DNA of 32,486 nucleotides from an uncultured bacterium (GTDB lineage Bacteria; Pseudomonadota; Gammaproteobacteria; Ga0077536): positions 1 through 32,486 of the forward strand of contig CAXGUU010000002.1 in NCBI GenBank assembly GCA_964012875.1, in the 5' to 3' direction. How positions within the stretch are numbered: the stretch's first letter is position 1; each line of letters begins with the position of its first letter. The notes below the pieces were generated by a model that was not told the origin of the DNA, did not search any database, and saw nothing but the letters and a program-made list of their open reading frames with translations. Positions 9,928 through 21,461 of the stretch are shown in pieces. The position numbers and the translations under genes were made by a program.

Positions 9928-10737
9928 ATGGCCCTCGACCCAGCACTCGAGCCATTCCGGGAATATCCTATCGAACCCGGTTTCGCCTACCCGGAGCAGA
10001 TCATTTCGATCGACGTTGCAGAGCAACGTCGTTTGCACGGGTATTGCGATATCGAACCAGGGCTGTTCGAGAATACCGCCGACCCGTCGCTGGTCAGTCG
10101 ACTGCCAATCGTGATGCTGTCGAATACGATTGTTGTGCAACGGCCGCGGTGGGGTCAGGTCCACACGGTACAACGCATTGACCAACGCCGACCTGTTGCA
10201 ACCGGCGAAGCTCTGAATCTGCATGGGACGATCGACCACTGCGTCCCCCATCCCCGCGGCGAGATCATGAAAAGTACCTGGCGCTATATCGATGCCGGCG
10301 GCGAAACGGTGCTTGTTGTCCGTCCCGACGTCTTGATGATCGATCCTGACGGCGGTAGCGAAACCGCGAAAAGACCGGGCGTCGCAGAAGCGGGTGCCGA
10401 ATCGTCACTGCTGTGGTCTAAAACCTGTACGCCGGAGAAAACGGTCTGCTACTGCGAAGGCACGTTCAACCCGATTCATGACGATCCCAAGGTCGCGAAC
10501 AGCTTCGGCTTTCGCGCCCCCATCATTGCCGGCACCCAAACCATGAGCTTTCTGTTAGAGCCGATTTATCGTCGAGCGGCTGTCGATGTGCTCGACGTCG
10601 CCATCCAGTTCAGGCGACCTGTATTCTGGGATGATGTGCTTGGAATCGAGGCGGTCGAAAATACACAAGGCTATTCCCACATTCGTGCCAGCAATGCCGA
10701 CGGCAAGGTTGTTGCTGACTGTACCATCGAACCCTGA
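9928..10737 (+). CDS. MaoC-like (R)-hydratase family protein, double-hotdog size
   Basis: 269-aa ORF. The C-terminal half carries the MaoC hydratase motif FNPIHDDPKVANSFGFRAPIIAGTQTMSF. Confidence 0.7.
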   Translation: MALDPALEPFREYPIEPGFAYPEQIISIDVAEQRRLHGYCDIEPGLFENTADPSLVSRLPIVMLSNTIVVQRPRWGQVHTVQRIDQRRPVATGEALNLHGTIDHCVPHPRGEIMKSTWRYIDAGGETVLVVRPDVLMIDPDGGSETAKRPGVAEAGAESSLLWSKTCTPEKTVCYCEGTFNPIHDDPKVANSFGFRAPIIAGTQTMSFLLEPIYRRAAVDVLDVAIQFRRPVFWDDVLGIEAVENTQGYSHIRASNADGKVVADCTIEP

Positions 10738-14218: not shown

Positions 14219-15127
14219 ATGACGACTTACACCGTAATTCAGCTCACCGAAGGCATGAACGTCAGTCAGCTCAATGATTTTGCCGGGCGCATCGAAGCCC
14301 TGGGCTATGACGGCCTGTGGGTGCCCGAACTGGATGGCCGGGAACCGGTCGCTTTATCGGGCCATCTCCTAGCCAACACCACAACGCTCAATATCGGCAT
14401 CGGCATTGCGAATGTGTACGTGCGCGATTTTGTCGCCGCCGCACAGGTGCGCCAGACCTTGGCGGAGCTGTCGGGCGGCCGCTTCTGGCTTGGACTCGGG
14501 GTGTCGCACCCGTTGTTGGTCGAGCCGCGCGGTCACACTTTTCTCCCGCCGACCCAGGCGCTCGGTAACTACCTGCGCGGTATTCACGCGACCGAACCTT
14601 CAGGACCGAAACCGGCATCACCGGGGCCGATTGTGTGCGCCGCCCATGGCCCGAACCTGCTGGCGATTTCCCGTGACCTTGCAGACGGTGCTTTCTGTCT
14701 TAACCAGCCGCCGCAGCACACGGCCCGGGCGCGCGAAATCCTTGGCGCCGACAAACGGCTCTGCATCGTTGTGCGTACCGTCCTTGAACCCAATGTCGAG
14801 GCGGCCCGGCAAATGGCCCGTCAGGCGCTCGATTTCTACATCAAACTGCCGGCCTATCACCGGACCTGGAAAGCTGCAGGCTATGACGAATCGGATTTCG
14901 ACAACGGCGGGAGCGACCGCCTGATCGACGCCATTTTTGCACTGGGCGATGAAAAAGCGATCGAGCGCCGTATTCAGTCGCATATCGATGCCGGCGCGTC
15001 TGAAATCTGCTTTTACCCTGTCAACCCGGCAGAAAACATGCAGGCCGACCAGGTTGGCGGCCTTGAACCGGCATGGACCATCCTCGAAGCCTTCGCCCCC
15101 GGACGCAGAGGCCCAGTAACACGGTGA
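14219..15127 (+). CDS. Luciferase-like monooxygenase (LLM) class flavin/F420-dependent oxidoreductase
   Basis: 302-aa ORF. TIM-barrel LLM pattern: GYDGLWVPE, LNIGIGIANVY, GRFWLGLGVSH. AAGGAAG Shine-Dalgarno lies 7 nt upstream. Confidence 0.8.
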   Translation: MTTYTVIQLTEGMNVSQLNDFAGRIEALGYDGLWVPELDGREPVALSGHLLANTTTLNIGIGIANVYVRDFVAAAQVRQTLAELSGGRFWLGLGVSHPLLVEPRGHTFLPPTQALGNYLRGIHATEPSGPKPASPGPIVCAAHGPNLLAISRDLADGAFCLNQPPQHTARAREILGADKRLCIVVRTVLEPNVEAARQMARQALDFYIKLPAYHRTWKAAGYDESDFDNGGSDRLIDAIFALGDEKAIERRIQSHIDAGASEICFYPVNPAENMQADQVGGLEPAWTILEAFAPGRRGPVTR

Positions 15128-16289: not shown

Positions 16290-16865
16290 TCAGCCGGCAC
16301 TCTTGGCGCCGTCCTCGAAATTCACTTCACACGGCGCGCCGACACTGTCGAGCCCGGTGGCGTAAACAAGCCGGCCGTAGCCCGTGAAGATCGCCATGCG
16401 CCATCCGAGCGCCATGATTTCACGCTGACTGTAGTGTTGTTTCAGTTCTTCAAACAACGCGTCGCTGACCGACTTGTGATCACCAGCTATGACGCTGGCG
16501 AACCTGAGTGCCGCTTTCTCCGCGTCATTAAACAAATCGCTGTTTTCGAATTCAGGCAACGCCTTGATCATTGCGTCTGTGAGACCCTGATCCTTCGCCG
16601 AAGCATACACGGCCGTCATTCACAGATTGCATTGATTGATTTGCGCGATTTTGTGACGAATGAGTTCAGTGAGTTTCACACTCAGGCCGTCACTGTCCGC
16701 CATAATGTGATCGTAGTAGAACTTAACAAAGTTGCGATACAGATCCGGCGTTTGCGCAAATACCTGGATCCATTCTGAACCGCCGAGCGCGGCGTCGGAT
16801 TCATGCATGGTTTTCTGCAGATCCGGATGCACCGCCTCGTACGGCACCTTATCGATGCGTAGCAT
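16290..16865 (-). CDS. AhpD-like / carboxymuconolactone decarboxylase (CMD, COG2128-type) family protein interrupted by in-frame TGA (16620-16622) at the second Cys of CxxC; candidate selenoprotein, or else a pseudogene
   Basis: Track ORFs 16620-16865 and 16290-16619 are in the same frame and adjacent: ...IRHKIAQINQCNL-TGA-MTAVYASAKDQGLTDAMIKALPEFENSDLFNDAEKAALRFA. This aligns with the family pattern SQxNxCxYCxxxHxxxxxxxGxT...W..S..F...E.AAL. A strong GGAGG Shine-Dalgarno precedes ATG 16865 only; none precedes the internal ATG. Confidence 0.6.
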
Positions 16866-16954
16866 GTGTTACCTCCCAGGGACCAGTCCCGTCCCTGATT
16901 TATATACCGCAGCAGGACGACTTTAAACCCCGGGAGCGAATGCCTCTCGGTCGC

Positions 16955-16984
16955 AAAAAAAAGAGCCGGCAATTGCCGACTCTT
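16955..16984 (-). terminator. Rho-independent terminator of the LLM gene 17005-17853
   Basis: The minus strand reads AAGAGTCGGCAATTGCCGGCTCTTTTTTTTTG. This is a stem of about 10 bp with one mismatch followed by a run of 8 T, 20 nt after the stop. Confidence 0.75.
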
Positions 16985-17004
16985 CGGATCCGAGAAACTC
17001 GCGA

Positions 17005-17853
17005 TCAGTTAACGAATTTCGCGTAGCTGTCCAGAATGGGCAGCACGGTTTCGGGGCTTTCGGGCGGCAAGGGCAGGATAGCGCGCTTGAAGCCCATGTC
17101 TGCCAGCGGGTTGATGTGATCAGCTTCCGGGGCCATGGCGAAGAACATCGACAGCTCGACGCTTTCAGGGTCGCGACCAATCTCCTTACAGGCCTCGGTG
17201 ATCTGGATCATGCCACCTTCAAAGTCGTATAGGCCCCCCAAGGGCATCCAGCCGTCACAAAATTCGGCCACATGCTTGGCCGTCTTGGGTCCGGCGGCGC
17301 CGCCCATCAAAATCTTCGGATGCGGTTTCTGGGTGGGCTTCGGCCACGCCCAGGATTCCTCGAACGTGGTTTTGTCGCTCGAATAGCTGGCCTCGTCCTT
17401 GGTCCACAGTTCTTTCATCAACTTGATATTGTCCGCGAGGATACCGCGACGCTTTTTGTAATCGAGACCATGGTTACGCATTTCCTCAACACACCAGCCG
17501 TAACCGATCCCGAATTCGAACCGGCCGCCTGAGATCATGTCGAGACTCGCAACCTCTTTCGCCAGCCAAATCGGATCGCGTTGCGCAACCAGGGTGATGC
17601 CCGTACCGAGTCGCAGATTAGTAGTCACCGCCGCCGCGGCCGTGAGCGCGACGAACTGGTCATGGGTACGCCAGTACTCTTCAGGTAGCGGTCCCAGGTT
17701 CGGGTTACCGCCCCAGGGTGTTTCCCGGCTGGTCGGAATATGGCTGTGCTCCGGAAACCACAGCGATTCGAAACCACGCTCCTCGCAGGCCCGCGCCAAC
17801 TCCATCGGCTGAATCGCCTTGTCGGTCGGGAACATAATGACACCAATATCCAT
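17005..17853 (-). CDS. LLM class oxidoreductase, Rv2161c-like (annotated family: probable F420-dependent)
   Basis: MDIGVIMFPTD...GFESLWFPEHSHIPTSRETPWGG...LRLGTGITLVAQRDPIWLAKEVASLDMISGGRFEFGIGYGW...DGWMPLG matches the pattern I recall for the mycobacterial Rv2161c-type LLM subfamily. GGAG lies upstream of the ATG. Confidence 0.85.
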   Translation of the reverse strand: MDIGVIMFPTDKAIQPMELARACEERGFESLWFPEHSHIPTSRETPWGGNPNLGPLPEEYWRTHDQFVALTAAAAVTTNLRLGTGITLVAQRDPIWLAKEVASLDMISGGRFEFGIGYGWCVEEMRNHGLDYKKRRGILADNIKLMKELWTKDEASYSSDKTTFEESWAWPKPTQKPHPKILMGGAAGPKTAKHVAEFCDGWMPLGGLYDFEGGMIQITEACKEIGRDPESVELSMFFAMAPEADHINPLADMGFKRAILPLPPESPETVLPILDSYAKFVN

Positions 17854-20579: not shown

Positions 20580-21461
20580 TCATCGTTTCAGACGCTGGGT
20601 CAGCTCCGCGACGCAATCCAGATCGTGTGCCGCACCATGCCCGTGACGTCCCCCGATAAAGTAATGGAGCTGTGAGTAGCCACGCTCAATGACCCGCCTG
20701 GCACCATCATAGTCGTCCGGCGCGTCGACCAGGGCCACGGTAAGTTCATCAAAATCCCGTCCCGCGTCTGCGCAAGCCACCTTGAGATCACTTACGGCAT
20801 CACCGTCATAGCTACCGTTGACGGTGATCCAGCCGTCGGCGTAACGCGCCACTCGCTTCGGCACCGACTTCGAATTCGACCCGATCCATACCGGCGGGCC
20901 CAGCGCACGATGGCAGGCAATACCCGGGCGGGAGCCGTCGAGGGCGACGAAATCACCGGCATAGGCAGGCAACTCGGCAGCCCAGATCTGTTTCATGGCT
21001 TCCACACGCTCGCGCACCACCTGCCATCGTTTAGCGAAAGGGCTGCCGAAGTCTTCCATCGACTCGCGGATGAACCCGCCGGCAACACCCAGCACAAGCC
21101 GACCGCCGGACAGATGATCGAGCGCAGCGGCCGCGTTTGCCGTCAACCAGGGATCGCGTTGTGTCATCAGGCACACGCCCGTGCCCAACGATATCTTTGC
21201 CGTCACGGCCGCACAGGCACCCAGACTCGCAAACGGGTCATGGAAGTGCGCGAGTCGTTCAATACCGTCGAACTGGCGAATCGTCCCCGGCCGCTCGAGC
21301 GGCACGTGGCTGTTTTCCGGCACGAAAAAGGCATCTATGTCGCGGGCTTCGGCCGCAGCCGCAAACTCATGTGGCAGTCCAGCCTCGTTATGGGCGAGCA
21401 AGCACACGCCAATAGCTATACCCGTCACCTGTTTAAGGACCAGTCCATGCGAGGAATTCAC
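20580..21461 (-). CDS. LLM class flavin/F420-dependent oxidoreductase
   Basis: 293-aa ORF with an LLM pattern: FFVPENSHVP, ISLGTGVCLMTQRDPWLTANAAAALDHLSGGRLVLGVAGG, DGWITV. GTG 21428 is a possible alternative start. Confidence 0.8.
   Translation of the reverse strand: MNSSHGLVLKQVTGIAIGVCLLAHNEAGLPHEFAAAAEARDIDAFFVPENSHVPLERPGTIRQFDGIERLAHFHDPFASLGACAAVTAKISLGTGVCLMTQRDPWLTANAAAALDHLSGGRLVLGVAGGFIRESMEDFGSPFAKRWQVVRERVEAMKQIWAAELPAYAGDFVALDGSRPGIACHRALGPPVWIGSNSKSVPKRVARYADGWITVNGSYDGDAVSDLKVACADAGRDFDELTVALVDAPDDYDGARRVIERGYSQLHYFIGGRHGHGAAHDLDCVAELTQRLKR

What the first reader, a model, noticed from the sequence alone, without database searches (positions are those of the whole stretch)
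16290..16865. AhpD/CMD-family gene with in-frame TGA exactly at the resolving Cys of CxxC: candidate selenoprotein (C-N-L-U)
Two adjacent same-frame ORFs (81 aa and 109 aa) together form one full-length AhpD-like protein of about 191 aa. The only interruption is TGA at 16620-16622. Aligned to the family core (N-x-C-x-Y-C-x-x-x-H-x7-G-x-T), the TGA falls on the second redox Cys. The downstream G and T anchors (QGLT) and the later ...S.LF...E.AAL segment stay in register. Only the first ORF has a Shine-Dalgarno (GGAGG 7 nt before ATG 16865); the internal ATG directly follows the TGA and has no SD. A Cys-to-Sec swap in thiol-redox motifs is the classic signature of bacterial selenoproteins, and I recall AhpD-like/CMD selenoproteins from marine selenoproteome surveys. 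Two caveats apply. The conserved His (+4 from the second Cys) is Val here. By eye I find only a weak 4-bp GC stem (GCCG-UGUAUGCUU-CGGC, 16597-16613) starting about 10 nt after the UGA, which is not a convincing SECIS.
Basis: partly seen in the sequence, partly recalled or inferred. Interest (0 to 1): 0.7.

Follow-up and report, generated by a model that had tools for sequence, protein, structure and literature searches.

The report
AhpD-like selenoprotein gene with conserved SECIS
The two adjacent small ORFs are almost certainly one gene for an AhpD/CMD-type redox protein whose in-frame TGA encodes selenocysteine; this kind of selenoprotein has been known from ocean metagenomes since 2005, so it is a real but fairly ordinary find that public annotation routinely cuts in half.

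Summary
On the minus strand, ATG 16865 to stop 16290 is one 191-codon frame broken only by TGA at 16622-16620. The joined product is a CMD/AhpD-fold protein with C79-N-L-U82. The same column is TGA in 58 of 58 readable homologous loci (41-100% identity), never TAA, TAG or a Cys codon. Both halves are equally conserved, and the codon after TGA is often not a start. The only full-length relative has Cys there. A hairpin begins 13 nt after the UGA and places a GGC loop 20 nt after it. It meets the published bacterial SECIS criteria, is fixed at synonymous sites, and shows compensatory changes in 6 of 7 pairs. Pseudogene, split gene, sequencing error and altered genetic code are all rejected. CxxU AhpD-like selenoproteins are well known. 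This clade is distinct in lacking the relay His and Tyr, and it reaches no curated selenoprotein model. No selA, selB, selD or tRNA-Sec lies in the window or in 515 kb of related loci, so the host's Sec machinery remains untested. I rate it a new member of a known kind, of modest interest.

The parts
16290..16865 (-). Complete selenoprotein coding sequence: 190 residues plus the terminal TGA at 16292-16290. CMD/AhpD fold with a C79-N-L-U82 redox motif.
   Evidence: Pfam PF02627 and the PA0269 alignment both span the internal TGA. Homologs are conserved on both sides.
16872..16877 (-). Shine-Dalgarno sequence GGGAGG, 6 nt upstream of ATG 16865-16863.
   Evidence: Read directly.
16629..16631 (-). 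TGC codon for Cys79, the first residue of the CxxU motif.
   Evidence: Invariant in 52 distinct clade proteins.
16620..16622 (-). In-frame UGA (codon 82), read as selenocysteine.
   Evidence: TGA at this column in 58 of 58 loci. Cys (TGC) in the full-length relative P0001/L074.
16588..16609 (-). Bacterial SECIS-type hairpin. The upper stem pairs 16606-16600 with 16596-16590 and has one G.G mismatch in this copy. The apical loop GGC is at 16599-16597. U16607 is bulged, and 16609-16608 form two lower pairs with 16589-16588. The loop begins 20 nt after the UGA.
   Evidence: 91.4% of cells paired, 6 of 7 pairs with compensatory changes, 0 of 500 shuffles. One search shows the synonymous-site constraint. 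The criteria are in PMC13188914.
16250..16270 (-). Intrinsic terminator (9-bp GC-rich stem followed by a T tract), 20 nt after the final stop codon.
16960..16985 (-). Intrinsic terminator of the upstream luciferase-like monooxygenase gene. It sets the target apart as its own transcription unit.
   Evidence: One search identifies the upstream gene.

Best explanation
This is a single monocistronic gene for a roughly 190-residue AhpD/CMD-fold thiol-selenol oxidoreductase. Codon 82 (UGA) is recoded to selenocysteine. The hairpin just downstream of the UGA (7-bp stem, GGC loop, bulged U below the stem) would act as the bacterial SECIS. It would recruit SelB-GTP-Sec-tRNASec to the ribosome paused at the UGA, so that Sec is inserted and translation continues to the true stop at 16290. 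In the protein, Sec82 occupies the position of the exposed, attacking Cys of the AhpD CxxC motif (Cys133 in M. tuberculosis AhpD, Cys51 in PA0269). Cys79 would resolve the mixed selenenylsulfide formed with the substrate, most plausibly an oxidised peroxiredoxin-type partner or a peroxide. What is shown here: one reading frame, a conserved TGA, Cys in a homolog, a conserved and covarying hairpin that meets the published criteria, and the CMD fold. What is inferred: actual Sec insertion, SelB dependence, and the redox partner and chemistry.
For: (1) TGA sits at the CxxC column in 58 of 58 readable loci spanning 41-100% identity, each with a single in-frame stop. The loci were collected with N-terminal peptide patterns that are blind to that column. 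(2) 45 of 46 database homologs are fragments cut at that codon. The one full-length relative, P0001, has C-H-L-C. (3) Both halves are equally conserved, 61% and 59% mean identity over 41 loci. Pfam CMD and the PDB alignments span the UGA. (4) The codon after the UGA is ATG, ATA, ATT, AGG, CAA or CTG, so there is no conserved restart. (5) In the hairpin, 91.4% of cells pair against 33-57% with slid partners. Six of seven pairs have double changes, 24 cells against 4.3 +/- 1.7 in shuffles, and 0 of 500 shuffles reach the covariation score. RNAalifold finds the same core. (6) Synonymous sites are fixed: Arg AGG 45/45 against 10% elsewhere in the same genes, Ser TCG 45/46 against 23%, Tyr TAT 46/47 against 36%, Ala GCC 41/43 against 30%. 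(7) The published bSECIS constraints are met: 3-nt loop starting GG, 20-nt spacing, MFE -13.3 kcal/mol. (8) TGA is the normal terminator of 11 of 24 window genes, and the target holds the only internal TGA. (9) The same gene with its TGA occurs in five independent assemblies. (10) Terminators flank the whole unit and none lies between the halves. (11) One family member (L062) sits next to an AhpC/TSA gene with its own in-frame TGA at W-U-P-Y-C and its own hairpin. Four loci carry tandem Sec-type paralogs. Carriers of the family therefore hold several Sec-type genes. (12) CxxU AhpD-like selenoproteins are an established family.
Against: No selA, selB or selD homolog and no tRNA-Sec was found in the 32-kb window or in about 515 kb of related loci. 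The rest of the source genome could not be searched, so the Sec-decoding trait of this organism is not shown. The window's own hairpin has a G.G mismatch in the stem, and its folding z-score is unremarkable (-1.3). No curated NCBIfam (seleno)protein model reaches its cutoff. There is no experimental evidence of selenium incorporation. The biochemical partner is unknown, and the gene neighbourhood is not conserved.
Confidence: 0.88

Rival explanations
1. The gene is a pseudogene. A nonsense mutation (TGC/TGT to TGA) inactivated a Cys-type AhpD-like gene and the two ORFs are its remains.
For: The gene is split by a stop, and the active-site His is absent. A few relatives do look decayed: L061 has an extra TAG, and L067 and L070 are frameshifted.
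Against: The same TGA occurs in 58 of 58 loci down to 41% identity, with no other stop and equal conservation of both halves. The RNA hairpin is under selection at synonymous sites. The gene keeps its Shine-Dalgarno and its terminator. The missing His is a trait of the whole clade.
Confidence: 0.02
2. These are two separate small genes, translationally coupled through the overlapping stop-start UGA-AUG, that make an 81-aa and a 109-aa polypeptide which assemble into a split AhpD-like protein.
For: In the window the TGA is followed at once by ATG. Gene callers annotate the C-terminal piece as a protein in many records.
Against: In more than half of the distinct homologs the codon after the TGA is ATA, ATT, AGG, CAA or CTG, which are not start codons here. 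There is no Shine-Dalgarno before the internal ATG. The break would fall inside the CxxC active-site helix, and the Cys-form relative is one chain. The stop is always TGA, which a stop-restart mechanism does not require.
Confidence: 0.03
3. The UGA is recoded, but not to selenocysteine. It could be read as Cys by a SelB/tRNASec-derived system, or by near-cognate read-through as Trp or Cys.
For: The Sec machinery was not found in the sequence available. The Cys form P0001 keeps an intact hairpin. From my own knowledge, tRNASec-like tRNAs that insert Cys at UGA have been described in some bacteria.
Against: The architecture (CxxU, a SECIS that meets the consensus, a neighbouring Prx-like UxxC gene) is the standard selenoprotein signature. 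The family belongs to a group repeatedly catalogued as Sec-containing. Near-cognate read-through would not need a conserved hairpin at a fixed distance.
Confidence: 0.05
4. The TGA is a sequencing or assembly error, or the organism uses a genetic code in which TGA is a sense codon.
For: None beyond the bare presence of an in-frame stop.
Against: Five independent assemblies carry the identical gene with its TGA. 58 loci from different samples carry it. TGA terminates 11 of 24 genes in the window, including this gene itself just before a terminator.
Confidence: 0.01

Closest known systems
AhpD-like / CMD-like CxxU selenoproteins of marine metagenomes (Zhang, Fomenko and Gladyshev 2005, PMC1088965; Zhang and Gladyshev 2008, PMC2398784: 'AhpD-like 1' COG2128, 'AhpD-like 2' PF02627, 'CMD domain-containing protein'; listed in the 2026 review PMC13188914)
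   Same: Same fold (PF02627). Sec at the second position of the CxxC motif (CxxU). SECIS hairpin immediately 3' of the UGA with G in the apical loop. Marine bacterial origin. Cys-containing homologs exist. One member lies next to a Prx-like UxxC selenoprotein gene, as reported for GOS reads.
   Different: The published sequences read CEYU-IRAH and CFYU-TSAH, with Tyr at x2 and His at +4. This clade is always C-x-L-U and never has His at +3 or +4. Its signatures GGSEWIQ and YASAR are absent from the held supplements, although the GOS files were truncated. TIGR01926, the model the review uses for 'AhpD-like', scores 49.2 against a cutoff of 81.8. Within 41% identity or more the clade is almost entirely Sec: 58 TGA loci against one Cys protein.
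NCBIfam NF053654 'YciW-related (seleno)protein' (also NF041047 GSU3128 family and NF041238 AhpD_rel_CFYUT)
   Same: NF053654 is the best-scoring curated model, and the alignment is nearly full length (residues 1-153 of the protein on model positions 1-152 of 179). It is also a selenoprotein family of the AhpD superfamily.
   Different: The score is 69.8 bits against a cutoff of 310, and the other two models score 22 and 15 bits. The same holds for P0001 and the L001 protein. The window protein is not a member of any of these equivalogs, so NCBI's annotation pipeline has no model that would join the two halves.
AhpD of Mycobacterium tuberculosis and PA0269 of Pseudomonas aeruginosa (PDB 2ijc/2o4d; PMC3141380)
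   Same: All-helical AhpD-like fold. The catalytic helix-turn-helix carries Glu 12 residues before the first Cys (E67, invariant) and the C-x-x-C/U motif at the start of the second helix. Sequence match to PA0269 has E 1.6e-8 over residues 39-171.
   Different: Sec replaces Cys51/Cys133. The relay residues Tyr50/His132 and His55/His137 are Leu81 and Val86. The PA0269 paper calls His55 invariant in the solved family members. The protein has an extra N-terminal segment of about 40 residues with an invariant GGSE motif, and a conserved C-terminal Cys179. No ahpC lies next to it in the window.
Consensus bacterial SECIS element (bSECIS model; E. coli fdhF as prototype)
   Same: A hairpin inside the coding region directly after the UGA. 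Small apical loop starting GG. 20 nt between the UGA and the loop (allowed range 16-37). 7-bp upper stem in most homologs. MFE below -7.5 kcal/mol. A bulged U below the upper stem, which from my own knowledge is also a feature of the fdhF element.
   Different: The loop is a triloop (GGC) at the lower limit of the model. In the window copy the stem has a G.G mismatch. SelB binding has not been tested. Rfam has no matching model.

Membership tests
Bacterial selenoprotein gene (Sec-UGA recoding) | The in-frame UGA aligns with Cys in homologs | tested here: met
   P0001 has C-H-L-C with TGC at the column. The distant relatives L005 and L006 have CQYC and CRYC. PA0269 Cys51 aligns there.
Bacterial selenoprotein gene (Sec-UGA recoding) | The UGA and the reading frame on both sides are conserved among diverged homologs | tested here: met
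   58 of 58 loci have TGA with a single in-frame stop. The N-half is 61% and the C-half 59% identical to the window on average.
Bacterial selenoprotein gene (Sec-UGA recoding) | A bSECIS hairpin downstream of the UGA that meets the consensus (3-9 nt loop, 4-16 bp stem, G in the first two loop positions, 16-37 nt spacing, MFE <= -7.5 kcal/mol) | tested here: met
   Loop GGC, stem of 4+2 bp in the window and 7 bp in most homologs, spacing 20 nt, MFE -13.3 kcal/mol. Covariation and synonymous-site constraint support it.
Bacterial selenoprotein gene (Sec-UGA recoding) | The genome encodes selA, selB, selC (tRNA-Sec) and selD | not testable with these tools
   None was found in the window or in 515 kb of related loci. 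Indirect support comes from second Sec-type genes next to family members.
Bacterial selenoprotein gene (Sec-UGA recoding) | Selenium is incorporated at the UGA position | not testable with these tools
   This needs 75Se labelling or mass spectrometry.
CMD/AhpD-like superfamily (Pfam PF02627) | Score at or above the Pfam gathering threshold | tested here: met
   42.3 bits against 23, E 7.5e-11, residues 40-123 spanning the UGA.
AhpD-like peroxidase-related family (PA0269 / MtAhpD type) | CxxC at the start of the second helix of the catalytic hairpin, with Glu 12 residues upstream | tested here: met
   E67, C79 and U82 are invariant in 52 clade proteins and align to Glu36, Cys48 and Cys51 of PA0269. 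Sec stands in for the second Cys.
AhpD-like peroxidase-related family (PA0269 / MtAhpD type) | Proton-relay His four residues after the second Cys (His55/His137), described as invariant | tested here: not met
   The residue is Val86 in the window and V, L, F, D or R across the clade, never His. The x2 position is always Leu, not Tyr or His.
AhpD-like peroxidase-related family (PA0269 / MtAhpD type) | Reduces AhpC or shows hydroperoxidase activity | not testable with these tools
   There is no biochemical data. The only hint is an adjacent AhpC/TSA gene in one relative (L062).
TIGR01926 peroxidase-related enzyme (the 'AhpD-like' entry in the 2026 review) | Score at or above the curated cutoff (81.8 bits) | tested here: not met
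   49.2 bits. Relatives score 36-52 bits.
NF053654 YciW-related (seleno)protein | Score at or above the curated cutoff (310 bits) | tested here: not met
   69.8 bits. Relatives score 54-93 bits.

The most novel reading that the evidence does not exclude
This may be a distinct, almost obligately Sec-containing clade of the AhpD superfamily in which selenocysteine has made the family's proton relay dispensable. The relay residues Tyr/His at x2 and His at +4 are replaced by Leu and an aliphatic residue in every member, while Glu67 and Cys79 are kept. If so, it is a natural experiment showing that the low pKa of the selenol can replace an enzyme's thiol-activating machinery. The rare Cys revertant (P0001, with its SECIS still intact) would then be expected to be nearly inactive.
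Probability: 0.3. Interest if true: 0.45.

Novelty: new member of a known kind. Interest (0 to 1): 0.3.

Why it matters
Practically, the gene and dozens of relatives are deposited as 81-aa and roughly 96-112-aa 'hypothetical protein' or 'alkylhydroperoxidase family enzyme' fragments, because no curated model covers this clade. A family model with U at position 82 would correct the annotation. It would also add a marker of selenium use in marine and other Gammaproteobacteria. Scientifically, the clade offers a clean comparative case for Sec-against-Cys catalysis in the AhpD fold (relay residues lost, Sec almost fixed). It also offers an unusually well-constrained bacterial SECIS (7-bp stem, GGC triloop, bulged U) that imposes the peptide YASAR on the protein. 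Neither point overturns current understanding.

Tried and rejected
(2) The long lower stem CUGUGA/UCACAG in the window's own MFE fold is window-specific and not conserved. (3) Rfam gave no hit at gathering thresholds for the whole window, and only a chance sRNA hit (E 1.7) in a permissive scan of 16480-16720. (4) ARAGORN found no tRNA-Sec in the window or in 35 loci. (5) tblastn with E. coli SelA, SelB and SelD against the window and all loci found nothing. (6) Conserved-neighbourhood analysis showed that the flanking luciferase-like monooxygenase, NMO and MaoC genes recur only in same-species contigs, so no operon logic emerges. (7) A scan of the window for other TGA-interrupted frames gave 57 candidates, all but the target being out-of-frame, Arg-rich noise. 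(8) The CxxU/UxxC candidates in L007/L008 (TSCAT*NRGD) and L010 were rejected because their upstream 'halves' are non-coding-like. The L055 candidate (SCFY*TETV) had no Pfam hit and is left unresolved. (9) String searches of the supplements of the Sargasso and GOS papers did not find this clade's signatures. The GOS files are truncated, so that absence is not conclusive. (10) I did not run a structure prediction, because the tool returns no coordinates and the sequence-level PDB and Pfam matches already fix the fold.

Full report
**1. The observation**

On the minus strand, ATG 16865-16863 opens a frame that runs to TGA 16292-16290. Its only interruption is TGA at 16622-16620. A GGGAGG Shine-Dalgarno lies at 16877-16872, 6 nt before the ATG. 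The internal ATG right after the TGA has none. The motif around the stop is N77-Q-C79-N-L-[TGA]-M-T-A-V86. With Cys in place of the stop, the 191-residue product matches Pfam CMD (PF02627) at E 7.5e-11, 42.3 bits against a cutoff of 23, over residues 40-123, that is, across the stop. Its best solved relative is the AhpD-like protein PA0269 (2ijc/2o4d, E 1.6e-8, residues 39-171), with INQCNL[stop] aligned on INGCAYC. Intrinsic terminators lie at 16985-16960, after the upstream luciferase-like monooxygenase gene, and at 16270-16250, 20 nt after the final stop. None lies between the two halves. Every factual element of the finding is therefore present.

**2. Is the TGA real and conserved?**

The identical gene, TGA included, occurs in five independent metagenome assemblies. 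In a search of 5.8 billion proteins, 45 of 46 relatives were fragments. Forty-four were pieces of about 105-135 aa that begin at the residue after this TGA. One (P0046) was an N-terminal piece that ends ...HNQCFL. The only full-length hit, P0001 (183 aa, 58% identity), reads ...HNDCHLCQSVVYASA, so it has Cys at the TGA column.

I then fetched DNA. Four close loci came from species-representative genomes, all Gammaproteobacteria or Proteobacteria MAGs. A further 57 came from metagenomes, collected with two N-terminal peptide patterns that are blind to the codon in question. In all 58 loci where the column could be read (41-100% protein identity) the codon is TGA. It is never TAA, TAG, TGC or TGT. 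All but one locus have exactly one in-frame stop; the exception is L061, treated as a decayed copy in section 7.

The codon after the TGA is ATG in some lineages but ATA, ATT, AGG, CAA or CTG in others, so a conserved restart is excluded. The two halves are equally conserved, with mean identity to the window of 61% and 59% over 41 loci. Within the window, TGA is the ordinary terminator of 11 of 24 Pfam-supported genes, and the target holds the only internal TGA. Sequencing error, pseudogene, split gene and altered genetic code are thus all rejected.

**3. The RNA element**

Downstream of the UGA the nucleotide block TAT GCC TCG GCG AGG CA is almost invariant, including its synonymous positions (48 distinct loci):

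| Codon in the block | At this position | Same amino acid elsewhere in these genes |
|---|---|---|
| Arg AGG | 45/45 | 10% |
| Ser TCG | 45/46 | 23% |
| Tyr TAT | 46/47 | 36% |
| Ala GCC | 41/43 | 30% |

The block folds as a 7-bp stem with a GGC triloop. In the window it is A16606-UGCUUC-16600 / GGC / G16596-AAGGAU-16590, with one G.G mismatch. Below it lie a bulged U16607 and two further pairs, 16609-16608 with 16589-16588.

On 42 distinct sequences, 88.6% of cells pair, against 34-60% when the partners are slid. Five of nine pairs have changes on both sides. RNAalifold predicts the same core on its own. A tandem paralog found in four loci has the hairpin UCGCGCU-GGC-AGCGCGA at the same distance, and L066 has UUGCCCU-GGC-AGGGCAA. 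With these added, 91.4% of cells pair. Six of seven pairs carry compensatory double changes, 24 cells against 4.3 +/- 1.7 in shuffles. None of 500 shuffles reaches the covariation score.

The published bacterial SECIS model asks for a 3-9 nt apical loop on a 4-16 bp stem, G in the first two loop positions (usually G followed by G or U), 16-37 nt between the UGA and the loop, and MFE of -7.5 kcal/mol or lower (PMC13188914). The window has a GGC loop, 20 nt of spacing and an MFE of -13.3 kcal/mol. Single-sequence z-scores are unremarkable (about -1.3), so the case rests on comparative evidence.

**4. The Sec machinery**

The window is a block of catabolic and oxidoreductase genes: enoyl-CoA hydratase, PQQ dehydrogenase, acyl-CoA ligase and dehydrogenases, luciferase-like monooxygenases, NMO, SDRs, hydrolases and a flavin monooxygenase. 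It contains no sel gene, no tRNA and no Rfam family. ARAGORN on 35 loci found no tRNA-Sec. tblastn with E. coli SelA, SelB and SelD against about 515 kb of loci plus the window found nothing. The rest of the source genome could not be reached, so this defining feature remains untested.

There is indirect support. In L062 the AhpD-like gene is followed by an AhpC/TSA gene (PF00578, E 2e-24) with its own in-frame TGA at FFRGHW-U-PYC and its own hairpin. L050, L051, L052 and L056 carry two tandem Sec-type CMD genes. Carriers of the family therefore hold several Sec-type genes.

**5. How it most likely works**

Shown here: one transcription unit, one reading frame, a conserved UGA, and a conserved, covarying SECIS-type hairpin. 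Inferred: SelB-GTP-Sec-tRNASec binds the hairpin as the ribosome reaches the UGA, Sec is inserted, and translation continues.

The AhpD proton relay is Glu36/Cys48/Tyr50/Cys51/His55 in PA0269, equivalent to Glu118/Cys130/His132/Cys133/His137 in M. tuberculosis AhpD (PMC3141380). Through the alignment these map to E67, C79, L81, U82 and V86. In M. tuberculosis AhpD it is Cys133, the second Cys, that is exposed and forms the mixed disulfide with AhpC, while Cys130 is partly buried (PMC6626918).

Across 52 distinct clade proteins E67, R70, N77, C79, L81 and U82 are invariant, and C179 is at least 95% conserved. Position +4 is V, L, F, D or R, and position +3 is A or V; neither is ever His. My inference is a selenol-based thiol-disulfide or peroxide oxidoreductase. 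Sec82 attacks the substrate and Cys79 resolves the selenenylsulfide. The thiol-activating relay is dispensable because a selenol is already ionised at neutral pH. The physiological partner is unknown. The gene neighbourhood is not conserved, and the only hint is the peroxiredoxin-fold neighbour in L062.

**6. Comparison with what is known**

[quoted passage not shown] They are listed in the 2026 review under TIGR01926, PF02627, NF041047 and NF041238. The window protein belongs to that kind.

It is not the same subfamily as the published examples, which read CEYU-IRAH and CFYU-TSAH and keep Tyr and His. Its signatures GGSEWIQ and YASAR are absent from the held supplements, although the GOS files are truncated. 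No curated NCBIfam selenoprotein model reaches its cutoff: NF053654 scores 69.8 against 310, and TIGR01926 scores 49.2 against 81.8. Public records accordingly annotate the family as 96-112-aa hypothetical or 'alkylhydroperoxidase family' fragments. A distant CMD clade (L007-L011, 26-27% identity, GCKY-U-TAH) also has TGA at the same column, with a different hairpin. This shows that Sec at this column recurs across the superfamily.

**7. Other observations**

The Cys form P0001 (L074) keeps the hairpin sequence intact after its TGC. This suggests a recent Sec-to-Cys switch or a base-call difference. L067 and L070 share a +1 frameshift at KLT|ELV, and L061 has an extra TAG and a broken stem pair. 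These look like decayed or low-quality copies.

**8. Verdict**

It is a new, mis-annotated member of a long-known kind of selenoprotein. It belongs to a clade with two mildly interesting traits: the loss of the relay His and Tyr, and a very tightly constrained SECIS. Interest is 0.3.

Noticed in passing
L050 619-1228 (TGA at 863), L051 about 69-672 (TGA 352), L052 (TGA 5654), L056 5418-5970 (TGA 5662): A second Sec-type CMD gene lies immediately upstream of the main homolog, forming a tandem pair. It reads ...NxCHL-U-KGARFALAARQG (PF02627, E 7.9e-12). Its hairpin UCGCGCU-GGC-AGCGCGA has the same shape, loop and distance as the main clade, but 5 of the 7 stem pairs are changed on both sides.
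   Followed up: partly
L062, TGA at 1170 (ORF to 1535), just downstream of the AhpD-like gene at 215-745: An AhpC/TSA peroxiredoxin-fold gene (PF00578, E 2e-24) has an in-frame TGA at FFRGHW-U-PYC. A 7-bp hairpin with the loop AGUUG starts 9 nt after the UGA. This is a Prx-like UxxC selenoprotein next to the AhpD-like one, echoing the neighbouring gene pair reported from GOS.
   Followed up: partly
L074 55-606 (protein P0001): The only Cys-form relative (TGC at the Sec column) still carries the intact hairpin sequence TATGCCTCGGCGAGGCA. This is either a very recent Sec-to-Cys conversion with a fossil SECIS, or a base-call difference in a single Logan contig.
   Followed up: partly
L067 365-914, L070 184-730, L061 386-910: L067 and L070 share a +1 frameshift at the same place (KLT|ELV) yet keep the TGA. 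L067's hairpin is intact, while L070's has a G-to-A change. L070 also has Ser in place of the first Cys. L061 has an extra in-frame TAG just after the hairpin and a broken stem pair. All three are probably decaying or low-quality copies.
   Followed up: partly
L007-L011 (for example L007 10001-10441, TGA at 10151): A distant CMD clade (26-27% identity) from unclassified-bacterium and Nitrospinota MAGs reads GCKY-TGA-TAH. The stop is at the same column, the His is retained, and the hairpin is different (CACGUUC-GGUC-GAGCGUG). It also fails every NCBIfam (seleno)protein cutoff.
   Followed up: partly
L055, minus strand, TGA at 619: An open frame of 104 plus 187 codons is interrupted by TGA at ...QHASCFY-TGA-TETVSAV, a CxxU-like motif that resembles 'AhpD-like 2' (CFYU-T). 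The joined protein has no Pfam hit, so its status is unresolved.
   Followed up: partly
window 17005-17853 (-), 20580-21461 (-), 14219-15127 (+): Three luciferase-like (LLM) flavin monooxygenase genes lie within 8 kb. Around the selenoprotein gene there are also an NMO, a flavin-containing monooxygenase and two acyl-CoA dehydrogenases. This is an oxygenase-rich catabolic island. The link to the selenoprotein is not conserved in other lineages.
   Followed up: partly
window 16290-16865 (-), residue C179 (codon at 16331-16329): A third Cys near the C-terminus (G-x-x-C-P/E) is at least 95% conserved across the clade. It could be an additional redox or resolving residue. Its position relative to the active site could not be assessed.
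   Followed up: no
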